From positions 121,487 to 185,486 of IMG/VR virus record IMGVR_UViG_3300018089_000001: a DNA stretch of 64,000 nucleotides, one strand, 5' to 3'. Origin of the DNA: a virus (Duplodnaviria; Caudoviricetes). A program made the translations under genes and the position numbers. Under the pieces are notes generated by a model that ran no database searches, was not told the origin of the DNA, and saw only the letters and a program-made list of their open reading frames with translations. Of the stretch, positions 1 to 42,369 are shown in pieces; position 1 is the stretch's first letter; each line of letters starts with the position of its first letter.

Positions 1-2199
1 CGGCGGGGAGCCGGCCGAGGCGAACGTCTGGGAGCCCCTGATCCCTGACTCGGAGGTCCAGGGGACGTCTGATCCGAATGCGCTGTTCCTGGGGGTCGAG
101 ACTCCGGCATTAGGAGAGCCGGCGAAGTTCCCGCTGGGGGATCCGAAGAGATGCCGCGGGTTCGGAGTGGAGGCGCCGTCGCTGAACACGGTCCGCATCC
201 CACGGTCCTTCTGCCAGACGGCGTAGTTCCGCATGAACTGGCCGCCGTCCAGGCCTCCACCCGAGGCGGGGTCGTTCCCATCGGTCGTGCTATCGAAGAT
301 CGCGGGCCCCTCCCAGAGCAGGAAGCTATCGCGATAGAACCGGTTCACGTTCGACCCGGTCCCCGCGTACATGCGACGGAACCCCTCGTGGATCCCGGCG
401 AGGAAGGAGAACGTGTCGCCGGGCGAAGTGTACACGCGGACCAAACGGGGGTCGTTCCGGATGGGATGGGCATTCCCCCAGGTCAGGTTCGGACACCTGA
501 TGGCCACGCCGAGGTTTCCGAGCGGGTACGGGTCACCGGAGGACGACCCCTGGATCAGCTCCACCCAGACCTTGACGTCCACGAGCCTCCCCGACGCGCT
601 CACTGGGATGAGGATCGAGGCCGGCGCCCAGGCGGATGACTGCTTGGACGACCCCTCTCCGGGGACCAGGGCGTCCTCGGCGACTCCGGTGACGGTGCTG
701 AACAGGGAGCCGCTGGCGGCGACGAACGACTGCGGGACCCAGGAACCGGACCTGATGACGGTGTCAGAGGCGGAGGCGGACTTCCGGACCATGATGGTCT
801 GCAGCCTCGCCTCCTTGCTGAAGTGCAGCGTCGCCGAGGCGGGGACCGGGGAAGACTCCAGCGGAGCAGTTCCGCTGGTGAATGTGTTGAAATACCTGTT
901 CTCGACGTCACTCGACGAGAGAGACACCGCGACGTATGCCTGATTGAAACCGATCGACGCATGGGTCCAGGAAGGACTCTCGAACGTCCCCGTCAACCCC
1001 GCATCGATCACGGTGACCGAGGGGAATGGAATCCTCTCGATGTTGCTCACCGGTTGGGCCAGCAGCGTCGCGGCGAGCTTGCTCTTCTCGTATCCCCTGC
1101 CAAGGGTCACCGATCCCTGAATCAGCAGGGATGACGATCCGATGACCGGCGAGTACGGCTCGTATGAGACGTTTGGACTGATTAGCGACGACATCACGCT
1201 GCCGCTGACCCTGAGGGAGTCGATGTCTGGGGCGTGCTGGACCTGGGCCCTCACAGAGCTGTTGAACTGCGGTGAGCCCGTGACGACCCCTCCCAACTGA
1301 CGGGCGAAGTTCTCAAGCGCCTGCGTCATGTTCACGAGCACGCCGGAGGCAACGGCGGAGCCCGTGCTCATGTAAAGCGCCGCCATATCGAACGTTTCGT
1401 TGGCTCCGACCCACCCGGTCTGCCCGTAATAGAAGTTCGCTGACGCGGTGATGAAGCCCCCGGGGACCGGGGAAGTGTTGGCGATCAGGGTCACACCCGT
1501 GTCAAGGGACCTTATTCCGAAGCTTGCGACCCTTTGTGAGTAATCGATCCCACCCAGGGCGACGTGCCACTCACCCACCCTGAATCCCGCCGTACCGCCA
1601 GGCACGTCGCACTCGAGGAAACCGAAAGTTCCGGACCCGATGAACTGGTACGTCGTGCCGTCCCGTCCCGCAACGACCCAACCCTGCCTGAAACCCCCGT
1701 CGATCTTCCCGAAGACGTTACCGAACGACCCGGTGAACGACCGCCACCGCCCCACATACCCGAAGAGCAGGTCGGAACCAGTCAGGATGTTGAAGTTAGC
1801 CCCACCATCGAAACGAGATCCCCGGGAGCTTCCAGTGAACGTGACCGCGAGGTCGCTGCCGCTCAGCCACCCAAGGGTTCCGTAGACCGCGTTCCCACCG
1901 GTGCTTGTATCGAACTGGAGGGCCAGCGGGGTTGACGGAGTGAACGAGGCCGTGAGGGACCCGGTGGTCTCATCCATGAGCCATCCGTAGTCCCAGCGTC
2001 CGAACCCGATGGCCGCAGCCATCTGGACGGATGAGCTCGGGTACACTCCCGCGGGGATGTTCGGCGTGACCATCACCGACCCCGGTCGGGTCCGGGTAAC
2101 CGAGGGACCGGGAACGAATCCCGCGGCCGGTGAGACGCCACGGCGGCCGTTCGTGAACCGCATCCCGCGACGGGGCCTGTAAACCTTGGTCTTCTTCAC
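1..2199 (-). CDS. virion structural/tail protein (partial, runs off window start)
   Basis: Not in ORF track. GTG overlapping the stop of the upstream gene (GTGA); hand-translated from 2199 to ~780 without a stop (MKKTKVYRPRRG..., Ser/Gly/Thr-rich), continuation to base 1 assumed; follows baseplate genes. Confidence 0.7.
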   Translation of the reverse strand, partial: MKKTKVYRPRRGMRFTNGRRGVSPAAGFVPGPSVTRTRPGSVMVTPNIPAGVYPSSSVQMAAAIGFGRWDYGWLMDETTGSLTASFTPSTPLALQFDTSTGGNAVYGTLGWLSGSDLAVTFTGSSRGSRFDGGANFNILTGSDLLFGYVGRWRSFTGSFGNVFGKIDGGFRQGWVVAGRDGTTYQFIGSGTFGFLECDVPGGTAGFRVGEWHVALGGIDYSQRVASFGIRSLDTGVTLIANTSPVPGGFITASANFYYGQTGWVGANETFDMAALYMSTGSAVASGVLVNMTQALENFARQLGGVVTGSPQFNSSVRAQVQHAPDIDSLRVSGSVMSSLISPNVSYEPYSPVIGSSSLLIQGSVTLGRGYEKSKLAATLLAQPVSNIERIPFPSVTVIDAGLTGTFESPSWTHASIGFNQAYVAVSLSSSDVENRYFNTFTSGTAPLESSPVPASATLHFSKEARLQTIMVRKSASASDTVIRSGSWVPQSFVAASGSLFSTVTGVAEDALVPGEGSSKQSSAWAPASILIPVSASGRLVDVKVWVELIQGSSSGDPYPLGNLGVAIRCPNLTWGNAHPIRNDPRLVRVYTSPGDTFSFLAGIHEGFRRMYAGTGSNVNRFYRDSFLLWEGPAIFDSTTDGNDPASGGGLDGGQFMRNYAVWQKDRGMRTVFSDGASTPNPRHLFGSPSGNFAGSPNAGVSTPRNSAFGSDVPWTSESGIRGSQTFASAGSPP

Positions 2200-36334: not shown

Positions 36335-37951
36335 TCACTTCACGAAGCCGGCCATCTCGGCCGCGAACCTCAGGATCCCCTCGCCCCAGCCGCCGAGGAC
36401 GTACGTCCGCCGGTAGAACTCGGGCATGATGGTGTCCTGGTAGCCGGCGACCTGCACCAGGAAGACGTTCACGTCGGGGTTGACCTCAGCGCGGTACTTC
36501 CTGACCAGCTTGGCGACGTCGATGTGGCGACCGTCCCAGGCGTAGTCGCGGTACTCACCGGGCTTGATCCCGTACAGGCCGCCGTGGCCCGCCTGCATGT
36601 CCGAGAACACGAAGACGTTGTCCCACCTGACCTTGCCCGCGATCGCGTCCCGCCAGAACATCCAGATCCCGTTCTCGGTGGACTGCCCGATGTCCCGGGC
36701 CAGCGACTCCGCGCGGGCGAGCTGGTCGAACGCCGAGGCGAGCTTGCGCACCGGAAAGACCTTGAGGTCGTCGCCGAAGACTCCGAGGCTGCCCTCGTCG
36801 GACGCCATGGCCGCGATGATGCCGGTCAGGTTCGCGATCGTGGACACCCGCATGCTTCCCATCGAGGAGGTGGTGGCCCCCTGCGCCGAGCCGCTGTTGT
36901 CACACAGCGAGATCGTCCTGCCCGGGAGACGCGGGACGTTGTCCAGCGAGGTACGCAGGCATCGCTCGATCGCATCGAGCACGGTGGCCGGGGCGATGTC
37001 CTGGACGGCCAGGTACGCCGAGTAGTATCGGAACGGCAGCTGCTTGCCCGCGGCCGCGCCCTCGACGAGCTTGTCCACGAAGACCGACGGGTCGATCCCC
37101 TTCTGGAGGACGTTCCGCACGTTCCTGAGGAGAGCCATGTGGCCCATCACGTCGATCGCCTTCCGCCAGTTCTCCGGGGTGGAGCCGCCGGTCGAGATGA
37201 TCGACTCCCAGGTCTGGTCCGTGGAGACCAGCTTTCCCTTCATCAGGGCGTCGAGCGCCGCGGTCCGCTTGGGATGGACGAGGTTCACGACGTCGAGCGT
37301 CTTGACCGTCCGGTTCTCCATGCGGTACTTGGCGAGCTGATACTCCGTCAACCGCGTCAGCTTGTCCGCCCACGCCTTCTTCAGCGAGTTCGGGATGGGC
37401 GCGTCCTTGCCGAAGCGCCAGACGTGATAGGCCAGCCCCACCGCCGGCTCGTCGGCGCGCTGGATGATGTCCGGCGCGTACTGCCGCACCAGGCCGGTCC
37501 CGCGAACCTTGGGGTGACGCGCGGCCCGCACGAGGATGACCTGCGGGGTCGTCCTGATGTGCTCGGCCTGCCGCAGCCGCACGGCCTCCTTGAGAGTGCG
37601 GACCGGATCGTGGTCGAGGGCCCGGTCGATGGCCGACTCGATCGCCTCGGCCGGCGTCTTCCCACGCCACTCCTGGGGATCGATCGCGTCGAGCGTCTTC
37701 CGCAGCTCGACGCGCTGGGCGTCGGTCAGGAAGGACGGGACCGATGTGTGGTGAGGCACCGGTCGCTTGACACGCCTGTCCTCCGGATCGGCCTCGTAGT
37801 ACTTCGGCTCACCGAAGAAGCACGAGCTCGCGGCGATCCTGAGGGCCTTGACGGGATCGTTGATGTCATATGACTCGCCGCCCATCCAGTTCAGGTGAGG
37901 CGTCGGCGCCTCGGGCGCCTGCTTGGTCTCGTGGAACCGGGACATCGTCAC
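36335..37951 (-). CDS. rsr: Ro60/TROVE-domain RNA-binding protein (TROVE + vWA)
   Basis: YQLAKY, TWES.IS, MGHMALLRNVRN, QLPFRYYSAY, DNSGS (MIDAS), SDMQ. Confidence 0.92.
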   Translation of the reverse strand: MTMSRFHETKQAPEAPTPHLNWMGGESYDINDPVKALRIAASSCFFGEPKYYEADPEDRRVKRPVPHHTSVPSFLTDAQRVELRKTLDAIDPQEWRGKTPAEAIESAIDRALDHDPVRTLKEAVRLRQAEHIRTTPQVILVRAARHPKVRGTGLVRQYAPDIIQRADEPAVGLAYHVWRFGKDAPIPNSLKKAWADKLTRLTEYQLAKYRMENRTVKTLDVVNLVHPKRTAALDALMKGKLVSTDQTWESIISTGGSTPENWRKAIDVMGHMALLRNVRNVLQKGIDPSVFVDKLVEGAAAGKQLPFRYYSAYLAVQDIAPATVLDAIERCLRTSLDNVPRLPGRTISLCDNSGSAQGATTSSMGSMRVSTIANLTGIIAAMASDEGSLGVFGDDLKVFPVRKLASAFDQLARAESLARDIGQSTENGIWMFWRDAIAGKVRWDNVFVFSDMQAGHGGLYGIKPGEYRDYAWDGRHIDVAKLVRKYRAEVNPDVNVFLVQVAGYQDTIMPEFYRRTYVLGGWGEGILRFAAEMAGFVK

Positions 37952-37980
37952 TGCCTTTCTCTCGGAGGAGTGGAGGAGTT

Positions 37981-38047
37981 GGCGGAGGAAGGGCGGGCGC
38001 GGTGTTTTTCACCCAATAGAAGTAACCGCTCCCAAGTCACTGCCGCC
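37981..38047 (-). ncRNA. Y-RNA-like 1 (Pro TGG-like loop)
   Basis: GGCGG/CCGCC stem, CAGTGA..CGGTTACTTC..GAA..TTCCT scaffold next to TROVE. Confidence 0.7.
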
Positions 38048-38050
38048 TAG

Positions 38051-38118
38051 CGCATCCGGATCGAATTGAACGACCATCTCCCGATGTTGAGTCAGGGCTC
38101 TGCTTGAGCTACGAACGC
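38051..38118 (-). tRNA. atypical tRNA-like gene, anticodon CAA, short V arm
   Basis: Cloverleaf with 5-nt D loop, loop CTCAACA. Confidence 0.5.
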
Positions 38119-38125
38119 AAGTCGC

Positions 38126-38260
38126 ACGTCGGAGAATACCGCCCACGGTGTGTTAGCGTGCTACCGTTACACCAAGGACCCATGGAGTGGGCCCCCCAGG
38201 ACTTGAACCTGGACCTCTCTCTTACAAGGAGAAGTAACCGCAGGACATCACTGCCGACGT
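38126..38260 (-). ncRNA. Y-RNA-like 2 (YrlA-type) containing a circularly permuted tRNA-Thr(TGT)
   Basis: Scaffold plus anticodon arm, T arm, loop-closed acceptor stem and D arm in permuted order. Confidence 0.8.
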
Positions 38261-38271
38261 ACGGAAAGTGT

Positions 38272-38363
38272 CGCAATGCGAAGGAAGTCGACGACGGGTT
38301 TTTCGTTTTCGGTTGAAAACCGAATGATGTTGAAGTAACCGTCACCATCACTGTCGCATCGCG
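38272..38363 (-). ncRNA. Y-RNA-like 3 (Glu TTC loop)
   Basis: Scaffold plus TTCGG-TTTTCAA-CCGAA hairpin. Confidence 0.72.
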
Positions 38364-38366
38364 TCG

Positions 38367-38435
38367 TGCTCCCGGACCGAGTCGAACGGCCGGCCTCCCA
38401 GACCAGCTGGGCGCTCTACACTGAGCTACGGGAGC
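38367..38435 (-). tRNA. atypical tRNA-like gene with 5-nt anticodon loop (CTGGT, Thr-like)
   Basis: Good acceptor/D/T arms; CCCAG-CTGGT-CTGGG. Confidence 0.55.
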
Positions 38436-38439
38436 TAAA

Positions 38440-38503
38440 GGGGAAGGAAGCTCGGAGCGGGGTTGTTCTTGGCATGAAGTAACCGCTTACCGTCACTGTC
38501 CCC
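38440..38503 (-). ncRNA. Y-RNA-like 4 (Gly GCC loop)
   Basis: Scaffold plus TTC-ATGCCAA-GAA; CATAAT 5 nt upstream. Confidence 0.72.
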
Positions 38504-38539
38504 AAGCCATTATGGCACTGTCGTTAGCAGTGCCGCTCG

Positions 38540-38612
38540 AGCGACCGGCGGGTCTCGAACCCGCCACCCCACGGTTGGGAACCGTGCGTTCTACCGGATG
38601 AACTACGGTCGC
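38540..38612 (-). tRNA. tRNA-Gly(CCC)
   Basis: Loop TTCCCAA. Confidence 0.9.
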
Positions 38613-38617
38613 GTCGG

Positions 38618-38689
38618 AGCAGGAGACGGGACTCGAACCCGCAGTCTTCTGGTTGGAAGCCAGGTGCCCTGCCGTTGGGCCACTCCTGC
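38618..38689 (-). tRNA. tRNA-Gly(TCC)
   Basis: Loop CTTCCAA. Confidence 0.9.
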
Positions 38690-38693
38690 AAAC

Positions 38694-38991
38694 GGTCACG
38701 GGCGAGAGGTGTGCTGTCACGCCAAAGACTCAGACGGAGCTGTGTCGGCCATGGTCCGACTCATCGCCTCGTCGGAGGGCCCACGCCGTTCAAGGCGAGC
38801 GTGGGATCCGATCTGCGCCCTAATCCGCCGTTCCCAGCGGTCTCCGTGGGGACAGGCGCGGTGCCTTGATACGTCCGCGCCCTTCCTTACGCCCGGGTCA
38901 GAAGCCTTATCGCCCTTCGCTGCCGGGACCCCGTCGTCACTCTTTAAAGGATGGCTGCTCTTAGGCCAACCTCCCTATCGCTCTCGTGACC
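38694..38991 (-). ncRNA. ~300-nt RNA mimicking the 23S rRNA L11-binding (H43/H44) domain with a large insertion
   Basis: GGAGGTTGGCCTAAGAGCAGCCATCCTTTAAAGAGT...GCGTGACAGCACAC; ends pair GGTCACG/CGTGACC. Confidence 0.7.
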
Positions 38992-39068
38992 TGGTAGCGC
39001 ATCCGGGTGTCGATCCCGGTTTTCCCGGCTGAGAACCGGGCGTACTAGCCAACGTGTACTAATGCGCC
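38992..39068 (-). tRNA. tRNA-Glu(CTC)
   Basis: Loop TTCTCAG; CCA; T loop starts with A. Confidence 0.8.
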
Positions 39069-42291: not shown

Positions 42292-42297
42292 ATTCGG

Positions 42298-42369
42298 AGC
42301 TGGCGGCGGGACTCGAACTCGCATCGGGCGGTTTACAAGGCCGCCATGTTGCCATTACACCACGCCAGC
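42298..42369 (-). tRNA. tRNA-Thr(TGT)
   Basis: Loop CTTGTAA. Confidence 0.9.

What the first reader, a model, noticed from the sequence alone, without database searches (positions are those of the whole stretch)
38126..38260. Complete circularly permuted tRNA-Thr(UGU) embedded in a Y-RNA scaffold
Seen, 5'->3': anticodon arm TTCTC-CTTGTAA-GAGAG, short variable loop, T arm CCAGG-TTCAAGT-CCTGG, acceptor 3' strand GGGGCCC, linker ACTCCAT, acceptor 5' strand GGGTCCT, D arm GTGT-AACGGTA-GCAC. The permutation point is the D/anticodon junction. Known: YrlA has T, loop-closed acceptor and D arms in this order but no separate anticodon arm. Inference: a full but unchargeable tRNA mimic, and a possible evolutionary intermediate between tRNA, YrlA and the minimal copies.
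Basis: partly seen in the sequence, partly recalled or inferred. Interest (0 to 1): 0.8.

Follow-up and report, generated by a model that had tools for sequence, protein, structure and literature searches.

The report
Phage Y RNA with full tRNA-like cloverleaf
This is a phage-encoded Y RNA of the known YrlA type, sitting just upstream of the phage's Ro60 gene, whose tRNA-like part also carries a conserved hairpin that looks like an anticodon arm; that hairpin is the stem-loop the literature calls 'V', so this is a new, well-formed member of a known family and not a new kind of RNA.

Summary
The closing stem extends to 38263/38123.

The element lies 175 nt upstream of a TROVE/Ro60 (Rsr) gene on the same strand, in a 185-kb phage with 41 tRNAs. 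It is one of four Y-RNA-like modules that share CAGUGA-N6-8-CGGUUACUUC.

It is homologous to the published YrlA of Mycobacterium phage ET08 (my covariance model: 64 bits). It has the same layout as RNAs next to Ro60 in Myrna-like phages, Bacillus phage G, Streptomyces phage Karimac and about a dozen metagenomic phages.

The T, closed-acceptor and D arms covary, and so does the claimed anticodon arm. In relatives the hairpin keeps 4-5 bp and a 7-nt loop with U33, R37 and A38, followed by a 4-5-nt AGGUC-type connector, while the middle triplet varies. So 'Thr(UGU)' is only nominal.

This hairpin is the 'V' stem-loop of Chen et al. 2014. Resemblance of YrlA to permuted tRNAs is already in print.

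'Unchargeable' is unproven: M. smegmatis YrlA, also with a 7-bp acceptor, is cut by RNase P and gains CCA.

The scan's first readers had already noted this stretch in two other notes.

Verdict: a new member of a known kind, with a useful structural refinement. Interest is moderate.

The parts
38254..38263 (-). 5' strand of the closing (outer) stem, CGUACGUCGG
   Evidence: Pairs with 38123-38132 in the fold. Sequence.
38245..38253 (-). 5' internal-loop strand CAGUGAUGU. It holds a bulged C and an AG that pairs with CU of the 3' strand. Presumed Rsr-binding motif.
   Evidence: The motif CAGUGA-N6-8-CGGUUACUUC occurs 4 times in the window and 0 times in shuffles. It recurs next to Rsr genes in other phages. 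Binding to Rsr is inferred.
38238..38244 (-). 5' strand of the inner scaffold stem, CCUGCGG
   Evidence: 7 bp with 38142-38148. Covaries in relatives: GAGACGG/CCGUCUC in L004, and ..CAG/CUG.. in L021-L023.
38234..38237 (-). Junction UUAC, the conserved YUAY of YrlA
   Evidence: Invariant GUUA in A1. YUAY is described in PMC4201824.
38217..38233 (-). Hairpin UUCUC-CUUGUAA-GAGAG: the anticodon-arm look-alike, equal to the 'V' stem-loop of YrlA
   Evidence: 5 bp plus a 7-nt loop. Covariation and invariant U33 across 14 relatives. Homologous block in ET08 YrlA.
38213..38216 (-). Connector AGGU, equivalent to the variable loop; U48 can pair with A15
   Evidence: 15:48 covaries among relatives, A:U or G:C.
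38196..38212 (-). T arm CCAGG-UUCAAGU-CCUGG
   Evidence: 3 of 5 pairs with double changes; GG/CC invariant.
38175..38195 (-). Loop-closed acceptor stem: GGGGCCC, then A plus CUCCAU, then GGGUCCU
   Evidence: 7 of 7 pairs. Outer four pairs covary in relatives.
38157..38174 (-). U8-G9, D arm GUGU-AACGGUA-GCAC, and G26
   Evidence: The D arm is identical in L073 and near-identical in Myrna-like phages.
38149..38156 (-). Junction CUAACACA (conserved YUAA after N26)
38123..38148 (-). 3' scaffold: inner stem CCGUGGG, internal-loop strand CGGUAUUCU, outer stem CCGACGUGCG
   Evidence: A UAUUCU-type 3' motif recurs in relatives.
36335..37951 (-). Rsr/Ro60 homologue (538 aa, TROVE domain), the presumed protein partner
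   Evidence: Pfam TROVE 46.2 bits against a cut-off of 23. Also.
37978..38047 (-). Sibling minimal Y module (copy 1), between the tRNA-like unit and rsr
38290..38360 (-). Sibling Y module (copy 3)
38440..38503 (-). Sibling Y module (copy 4), with UUC-AUGCCAA-GAA hairpin

Best explanation
The element is a phage-encoded Y RNA of the YrlA class.

Its 5' and 3' ends form a two-part stem that holds a conserved asymmetric internal loop. On the 5' strand this is a bulged C followed by AG-UGA; on the 3' strand it is UAUU-CU. This stem is the likely docking site for the phage Ro60/Rsr ring, which is encoded 175 nt downstream.

The stem carries a tRNA-like module built from:
- a conserved 5-bp, 7-nt-loop hairpin with a U-turn signature;
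- a 4-nt variable-loop equivalent;
- a T arm;
- a 7-bp acceptor stem closed by a 7-nt linker;
- a D arm.

Together these can fold as a complete cloverleaf that is circularly permuted at the D/anticodon junction.

The RNA is probably cut out of a polycistronic tRNA/Y-RNA transcript by tRNA-processing enzymes. It probably works like other Y RNAs, tethering Rsr to, or gating it for, a tRNA-binding or RNA-degrading partner such as host PNPase.

What is shown here: the anatomy, conservation, covariation, linkage to Rsr, and homology to a published YrlA.

What is inferred: Rsr binding, processing, the partner, and whether the hairpin occupies the anticodon-arm position in three dimensions (about even odds).
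For: Linkage to Rsr:
- The element is on the same strand as, and 175 nt upstream of, a TROVE protein.

Relatives next to Rsr genes:
- The same architecture lies next to Rsr genes in 20+ phage contigs and in cultured phages: Myrna group, ET08, Bacillus phage G and Karimac.
- Model R1, built from the focal element and 6 relatives, finds the published ET08 YrlA at 64.2 bits, E = 2e-15.
- The CGGUUAC, GAGAGAGGU and GC(U)UAAAC blocks are shared with ET08.

Covariation:
- T, acceptor and D stems.
- The hairpin.
- The inner scaffold stem, by direct reading.
- The Levitt pair 15:48 is A:U in 6 relatives and G:C in 6.

Hairpin conservation:
- Loop position 2 is U in 14 of 14 relatives, position 6 is a purine in 14 of 14, and position 7 is A in 13 of 14.
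- Hairpins of this kind accompany T arms in 14 of 18 cases, against 9 of 93 modules without such a hairpin (Fisher 8e-9).

Fit to a class I tRNA:
- The connector after the hairpin is AGGU(C)-like, as in class I tRNAs.
- G26 and A44 are in place.

Precedents from the literature:
- M. smegmatis YrlA and YrlB are processed from one precursor upstream of rsr, and its YrlA is cut by RNase P (PMC4201824).
- The Ro60 of Thermus phage phiLo binds two phage Y-like RNAs and host PNPase (PMC12135203).
Against: - No expression, binding or probing data exist for this RNA.
- The Rfam YrlA model gives no hit here even at E <= 10.
- The literal GNCGAAN0-1G motif of YrlA is replaced by GUCGGCAG/CAGUGA.
- The hairpin's 5' strand (UUC) is part of the motif GGUUACUUC, which is also conserved in minimal modules that have no tRNA part. 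One minimal module (L104 at 6462) has a 5-bp CUGAUAA hairpin without T, acceptor or D arms. The hairpin may therefore belong to the scaffold and not to the tRNA mimic.
- ARAGORN's call of the re-permuted sequence as tRNA-Thr carries little weight: 365 of 550 constructs with a shuffled hairpin were still called tRNAs.
- The relatives are not phylogenetically independent, so the counts overstate the support.
Confidence: 0.75

Rival explanations
1. The family is the same, but the published topology applies. The helix that continues the scaffold (GUUA pairing with UAAC just after G26) is the anticodon-stem equivalent, as in the Salmonella YrlA crystal structure. The hairpin then projects as a long variable arm, as in a class II tRNA. 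It would not be a complete permuted tRNA but a YrlA with a V arm that happens to have a 7-nt loop.
For: - Chen et al. 2014 name this stem-loop V and say the conserved YUAY begins it (PMC4201824).
- In the 6CU1 structure the conserved UA sits in the anticodon-like stem and makes a kink (bioRxiv 10.1101/312249).
- UUAC can pair with CUAA/GUAA, which follows N26 in most relatives.
- L084 at 289-135 has a true 5-bp stem directly after N26 that leads into the Y module, and it has no hairpin.
Against: - UUAC is nearly invariant, so its pairing shows no compensatory change, and the one change seen (AUAC in L091) is not compensated.
- A full 4-5-nt AGGU(C) connector follows the hairpin. In class II tRNAs positions 44-45 precede the variable arm, and only 1-2 nt follow it.
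- Variable arms do not normally keep a 7-nt U33/R37/A38 loop.
Confidence: 0.35
2. It is a true permuted tRNA gene. The transcript would be circularised or spliced at the scaffold and opened at the acceptor linker, giving a working tRNA-Thr(UGU), as in Cyanidioschyzon.
For: - All cloverleaf parts are present.
- The acceptor is 7 bp with A73.
- Relatives with an open acceptor ending in ACCA exist in L073 and L084.
Against: - There is no bulge-helix-bulge motif.
- No RtcB ligase is encoded in the phage.
- The phage already has tRNA-Thr(UGU) at 42296-42369.
- The triplet is not conserved among relatives.
- The scaffold is conserved and linked to Rsr, which an intron-like spacer would not need.
Confidence: 0.03
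3. It is two unrelated tRNA remnants, or a junction between two tandem tRNAs, with no function of its own.
For: - The element sits inside a dense tRNA array.
- Junctions between tandem tRNAs give weak YrlA-like scores. Examples: Rfam YrlA 19 bits at 38588-38643 and partial R1 hits at tRNA junctions.
Against: - The acceptor strands are 7 of 7 complementary and covary in relatives.
- The whole element, scaffold included, is conserved next to Rsr across distant phages.
- The fold z-score is -3.6.
Confidence: 0.03

Closest known systems
YrlA (Y RNA-like A), in particular the YrlA of Mycobacterium phage ET08 and of M. smegmatis (Chen et al. 2014, RNA 20:1715; Rfam RF02553)
   Same: - Encoded just upstream of rsr on the same strand.
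- A 5'/3' stem with a conserved 5'-strand motif.
- YUAY, then a stem-loop ('V'), a short connector, a T arm, a closed acceptor-like stem, U-R, and a D arm.
- A Levitt pair that covaries.
- A total length of about 141 nt, against about 147 nt in M. smegmatis.
- A 7-bp acceptor, as in M. smegmatis.
- ET08 shares the GAGAGAGGU block and is found by my model at 64 bits.
   Different: - The 5' motif is CAGUGA (GUCGGCAG) instead of GNCGAAN0-1G.
- The hairpin is a full 5 bp with a CUUGUAA loop, against 3 bp with AUUGAAA in ET08.
- The D arm is GUGU/GCAC instead of GCUC/GAGC.
- The Rfam model does not detect it.
- It is one of four tandem Y modules interleaved with tRNA-like units.
Salmonella Typhimurium YrlA tRNA-like domain (PDB 6CU1; bioRxiv 10.1101/312249)
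   Same: T, closed acceptor and D elements that keep the tRNA tertiary-contact nucleotides, and a conserved UA near the junction.
   Different: - In Salmonella the anticodon-like stem is formed by the strands that lead to the Ro-binding module, and there is no separate hairpin.
- Its acceptor is 6 bp and is not cut by RNase P.
- Here an extra 17-nt hairpin sits exactly where an anticodon arm would.
Circularly permuted tRNA genes of Cyanidioschyzon merolae and some archaea (Soma et al. 2007)
   Same: The 3' half precedes the 5' half, and the acceptor is closed by a linker.
   Different: - Those genes are matured to normal tRNAs by a splicing endonuclease and a ligase at a bulge-helix-bulge motif.
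- None of that machinery or motif is evident here.
- Here the ends carry a conserved Ro-binding scaffold.
Yrl1/Yrl2 of Thermus phage phiLo with its Ro60 (NAR 2025, PMC12135203)
   Same: Phage-encoded Y-like RNAs directly upstream of a phage Ro60, with a stem-bulge-stem scaffold.
   Different: Those have a CGAA motif, and no tRNA-like module is reported for them.

Membership tests
YrlA-class Y RNA | Encoded within about 4 kb of a Ro60/Rsr (TROVE) gene on the same strand | tested here: met
   The element ends at 38123 and rsr starts at 37951, both on the minus strand. TROVE scores 46.2 bits.
YrlA-class Y RNA | T stem-loop followed by a closed acceptor-like stem-loop and then a D stem-loop, with tRNA-type conserved nucleotides | tested here: met
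   The element keeps U8, A14, A15:U48, G18 G19, G53:C61 and the UUCAAGU loop, and the stems covary.
YrlA-class Y RNA | GNCGAAN0-1G motif near the 5' end (proposed Rsr contact) | tested here: inconclusive
   The literal motif is absent. The counterpart in the same position is GUCGGCAG/CAGUGA, which is conserved in this clade. The published ET08 member also deviates (GCCGAGAG).
YrlA-class Y RNA | Conserved YUAY that begins the V region | tested here: met
   UUAC at 38237-38234; GUUA is invariant in A1 and A2.
YrlA-class Y RNA | Reaches the Rfam RF02553 gathering score (69 bits) | tested here: not met
   No hit at E <= 10. The published phage members also fail this cut-off: ET08 37.4 bits and phage G 36.2 bits. 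The cut-off therefore does not define phage YrlAs.
YrlA-class Y RNA | Sequence and structure homology to a published member | tested here: met
   R1 finds ET08 YrlA (L148 at 762-900) at 64.2 bits and the Myrna group at 63-82 bits. blastn gives 83% identity over 62 nt to ScoobyDoobyDoo.
YrlA-class Y RNA | Bound by Rsr in vivo | not testable with these tools
   Needs immunoprecipitation or a gel-shift assay.
Canonical tRNA | Cloverleaf in the native 5'->3' order, recognised by tRNA models | tested here: not met
   Neither ARAGORN nor the Rfam tRNA model hits 38123-38263.
Permuted tRNA gene matured to a working tRNA | Bulge-helix-bulge junction with splicing endonuclease and ligase, and a mature tRNA product | tested here: inconclusive
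   I saw no BHB motif on reading the sequence, and there is no RtcB in the phage. Host enzymes and RNA products could not be tested.

The most novel reading that the evidence does not exclude
In this phage clade the Ro60-bound Y RNA carries a complete tRNA body that includes a working anticodon stem-loop mimic. The same composite exists in both circular permutations:
- closed acceptor with an open Ro-binding stem, as here;
- open acceptor ending in ACCA with the Ro-binding stem closed by a GNRA loop, as in L073 and L084.

[quoted passage not shown] The phage would then hold a tRNA decoy or bait on Rsr, either to protect or police its large tRNA set or to blunt tRNA-cleaving defences.
Probability: 0.18. 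Interest if true: 0.75.

Novelty: new member of a known kind. Interest (0 to 1): 0.42.

Why it matters
Y RNAs and Ro60 are widespread, but what the tRNA-like half of bacterial and phage Y RNAs binds is still unknown.

This element and its relatives show that, in many phages, the stem-loop the literature treats as a poorly conserved 'V' arm is in fact a well-conserved anticodon-arm look-alike: 5 bp, a 7-nt U-turn loop, and a class I variable loop after it. That narrows the search for partners to proteins that read the whole tRNA, not only the elbow.

It also fits the published idea that YrlA arose from a tandem tRNA pair. A tandem duplicate of one tRNA, trimmed at both ends, gives exactly this permuted order. 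The Myrna-group copy still has ACCA after the acceptor 3' strand.

The open-acceptor relatives found here, outside the window, would let that evolutionary path be tested.

In practical terms, the Rfam YrlA model misses this clade, so phage Y RNAs are under-annotated.

Tried and rejected
1. ARAGORN on in-silico re-permuted sequences. All 11 were called tRNAs, and the focal one was called Thr-UGU. But 365 of 550 constructs with a shuffled hairpin region were also called, so I do not count this as evidence.

2. Recent derivation from a tRNA of the array. The best global identity is 71%, to tRNA-Lys(CUU). That lies inside the tRNA-to-tRNA range (mean 59%, maximum 78%). The phage's tRNA-Thr(UGU) is not among the top ten.

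3. Pattern scan of viral contigs for CAGTGA-N5-9-GGTTACTTC. It returned 119 stretches, but only 15 bases are specified and the database is very large, so most single hits are probably chance. I used only loci that also encode an Rsr relative (tblastn) or that share a contig with one.

4. Promoter and terminator scan of 37800-39000. Nothing was found.

5. RtcB in the phage genome. None was found.

6. Scan of bacterial genomes with the Myrna-group Ro protein, to reach M. smegmatis YrlA. It found no relative, so I could not inspect the V arm of the experimentally studied bacterial YrlA.

7. The supplement of Chen et al. 2014 and two Wolin reviews are not held.

8. The minimum-energy registers of the hairpin (4-nt loop) and of the D stem (GUGU/ACAC). 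I rejected them because relatives cannot form them.

Full report
**Setting**

The window is the last 64 kb of a 185-kb phage record from IMG/VR. On the minus strand it carries 41 tRNA genes between 33.4 and 44.1 kb.

Within this array, at 36335-37951 (minus), lies a 538-aa ORF with a TROVE domain (46.2 bits, cut-off 23). This is a Ro60/Rsr homologue.

The finding lies 175 nt upstream of that gene on the same strand.

The motif CAGUGA-N6-8-CGGUUACUUC occurs four times between the last ordinary tRNAs and rsr, against none in shuffles. The focal element is the second of these four modules counted from rsr. The modules are interleaved with tRNA-like units.

**The observation**

- The 5' and 3' ends pair over 10 bp (38263-38254 with 38132-38123).
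- Next comes an internal loop. CAGUGAUGU lies opposite CGGUAUUCU, with a bulged C and AG pairing with CU.
- Then a 7-bp inner stem (CCUGCGG/CCGUGGG).
- From there the 5' strand runs: UUAC; hairpin UUCUC-CUUGUAA-GAGAG; AGGU; T arm; GGGGCCC; ACUCCAU; GGGUCCU; UG; D arm GUGU-AACGGUA-GCAC; G; CUAACACA.

The nucleotides that make tRNA tertiary contacts are all in place:
- U8 and A14;
- A15 with U48;
- G18 and G19;
- G53:C61;
- T54-type U with A58;
- G26 with A44;
- G45 and G46.

The fold is well below that of shuffles (z = -3.6). No tRNA finder calls the element in its native order.

**Relatives**

blastn linked the T-acceptor-D core to Mycobacterium phage ScoobyDoobyDoo, just upstream of its 'Ro-like RNA binding protein'. 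Myrna and Phabba have the same element 25-45 nt upstream of Ro.

Searching viral contigs with the Rsr protein gave 21 loci. Many carry the same motif upstream of rsr.

A covariance model built from seven elements (A1, R1) then found further full-length copies:
- L139, L091, L023, L100 and L020;
- Bacillus phage G;
- Streptomyces phage Karimac (weak hit);
- at 64.2 bits, the YrlA of Mycobacterium phage ET08. This is one of the representative sequences in Figure 1D of Chen et al. 2014 (PMC4201824).

ET08 reads ..GUCGG-UUAC-CUC-AUUGAAA-GAG-AGAGGUC-T arm-... It shares the block GAGAGAGGU with the focal element. The focal RNA is therefore a homologue of a published YrlA.

The Rfam YrlA model scores ET08 and phage G at only 36-37 bits (gathering score 69) and misses the focal element entirely. 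Failure of that model says little about membership.

**Is the hairpin real, and what is it?**

RNAalifold on A1 supports the T, acceptor and D stems with compensatory changes.

I cut out the 17 nt before the connector in 14 relatives and counted a 5-bp stem:
- 88% of cells pair.
- 17 cells have changes on both sides, against 4.9 +/- 2.1 in shuffles (0 of 500).
- Sliding the partner drops pairing to 58% or less.
- I chose each register to maximise pairing, which inflates these numbers somewhat.

The loops are: CUUGUAA (focal and L139), UUGGUAA, CUAGUAA, CUGAUAA, CUGUUAA, AUGUUAA, CUGUGGA, AUGCGGA, UUGCAAA, CUUCAAA, CUGCUAA, AUGCUAA, plus AUUGAAA (ET08), AUUAUGA (phage G) and CUAUGAA (Karimac).
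- Position 2 is always U.
- Position 6 is always a purine.
- Position 7 is almost always A.
- The middle triplet varies freely.

That is the anticodon-loop (U-turn) signature. It also means that 'Thr(UGU)' is only a label.

The connector that follows is 4-5 nt and often AGGUC-like. Its last base covaries with position 15 of the D loop.

Among Y modules in Rsr-linked loci, hairpins of this kind accompany a T arm in 14 of 18 cases. Of the 93 modules without such a hairpin, 9 have a T arm. These are not phylogenetically independent, and the motif filter was loose.

**Two ways to read the same secondary structure**

Chen et al. [quoted passage not shown] The focal hairpin is that stem-loop.

In the Salmonella YrlA crystal structure, which has no such hairpin, the anticodon-like stem is made by the strands that lead to the Ro-binding module. 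The conserved UA kinks that stem.

Here UUAC can pair with the CUAA that follows G26. The published topology (scaffold helix under the D stem, hairpin as a variable arm) is therefore a serious rival.

Points against the published topology:
- A complete class I variable loop follows the hairpin.
- The hairpin has anticodon-arm dimensions and a U-turn loop.
- The UUAC/CUAA pairing shows no compensatory change.

Points in its favour:
- The UUC of the hairpin belongs to the motif GGUUACUUC, which minimal modules also keep.
- One minimal module (L104 at 6462) has a 5-bp CUGAUAA hairpin with no T, acceptor or D arms.

I put about even odds on the hairpin taking the anticodon-arm position. Only a structure or probing can decide.

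**Other forms in relatives**

Two large phage contigs hold the reverse permutation.

- In L073 (4556-4412, minus) the order is: acceptor 5' strand; D arm (identical to the focal one); A26; a Y module whose outer stem is closed by GCAA; UAC; hairpin UUCUA-CUGCUAA-UAGAC; UAGA; T arm; acceptor 3' strand; ACCA.
- In L084 (289-135, minus) a normal anticodon stem, GCGGU/ACCGC, carries the closed Y module in place of the anticodon loop. This RNA also ends in ACCA.
- A third L084 element (about 410-290) has a D-anticodon-T body inside the scaffold.

In the Myrna group the acceptor 3' strand is followed by ACCA, then 3-4 nt, then the 5' strand.

These forms fit an origin from tandem tRNA copies, as proposed in print, but they do not give a direction.

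**Function**

Nothing here tests function. I reason by homology from three published cases.
- Deinococcus and Salmonella Y RNAs tether Rsr to PNPase.
- The Ro60 of Thermus phage phiLo binds two phage Y-like RNAs and host PNPase.
- M. smegmatis YrlA and YrlB are cut from one precursor upstream of rsr. Its 7-bp-acceptor YrlA is cleaved by RNase P and gains CCA.

On that basis the most likely reading is an Rsr-bound Y RNA. It would be released from the tRNA/Y-RNA transcript by tRNA-processing enzymes. It would possibly be nicked in the ACUCCAU linker, with its tRNA-like half serving as the handle for a tRNA-binding or RNA-degrading partner.

The phage has no RtcB. It already has a tRNA-Thr(UGU). 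The re-permuted sequence is no closer to that tRNA than tRNAs are to each other. Maturation into a working tRNA is therefore unlikely.

**Verdict**

The element is a new and unusually clean member of the YrlA family, not a new kind of RNA. The resemblance of YrlA to permuted tRNAs is already in the literature.

What is worth keeping is that the 'V' stem-loop of phage YrlAs is a conserved anticodon-arm look-alike tied to the T-acceptor-D module.

The first readers of this scan noted the same stretch and the four-module array in separate notes. My checks agree with the shared architecture. They only partly agree with the claim that every module shows an anticodon loop.

Noticed in passing
window 37978-38503 (minus): There are four tandem Y-RNA-like modules upstream of rsr. 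All share an outer stem, a bulged C with AG-UGA, an inner stem ending in CGG, UUACUUC, a payload, CCG, and a pyrimidine-rich UUCCU/UAUUCU strand. Only the focal one has T, acceptor and D arms. Copy 4 has UUC-AUGCCAA-GAA. Copies 1 and 3 do not show a 7-nt U33/R37 loop.
   Followed up: partly
window 38050-38118 and 38366-38435 (minus): tRNA-like units are interleaved with the Y modules. The 'tRNA-Leu(CAA)' has no long variable arm and scores only 37.9 bits. The 'tRNA-Pro(UGG)' has a shortened anticodon loop in the Rfam alignment. They may be processing signals and not decoding tRNAs.
   Followed up: partly
L073:4412-4556 (minus) and L084:135-289 (minus): These are tRNA-shaped RNAs with an open acceptor that ends in ACCA. 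Each carries a Y module, closed by a GCAA loop, either between the D arm and an anticodon-like hairpin (L073) or in place of the anticodon loop (L084). This is the reverse circular permutation of the focal element. I found no description of it in the papers I could read.
   Followed up: partly
L084: about 290-410 (minus): A Y scaffold whose payload is a D arm, an anticodon-like arm (UUCC-CUAUUAA-GGAA) and a T arm. The conserved ACUUCG pairs with CGAGG after the T arm, like an acceptor stem. Rfam tRNA hits positions 3-68 of the model.
   Followed up: no
L003:2472-2609 (minus); L144 and L145 at 401-536: The Myrna-group YrlA has ACCA directly after the acceptor 3' strand, then 3-4 nt, then the 5' strand. 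It looks like the junction of two tandem copies of one tRNA. It is unannotated in all five GenBank records.
   Followed up: partly
L003:2312-2712 (minus): ScoobyDoobyDoo has three Y-like modules upstream of Ro: one minimal, the Myrna-type YrlA, and a second YrlA-like element with a long acceptor insert (Rfam YrlA 28.8 bits).
   Followed up: no
Rfam RF02553 against L148, L146 and the window: The Rfam YrlA model scores the published ET08 and phage G elements at 36-37 bits (gathering score 69) and misses the focal clade. Phage Y RNAs will therefore go unannotated by standard pipelines.
   Followed up: yes
L004:1908-2248 (plus); L084:1956-2310 (minus): Phage-encoded tmRNA genes lie within 1-2 kb of the Y-RNA/rsr cluster in two relatives.
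   Followed up: no
L023:6650-6773 (plus): A DUF3800-I RNA (Rfam RF02969, 55.6 bits) lies next to a tRNA, downstream of rsr, in one relative.
   Followed up: no
window 38104-38351: Two mechanical ORFs (70 aa on the plus strand, 80 aa on the minus strand) overlap the element. Given the conserved RNA structure they are most likely not genes.
   Followed up: no
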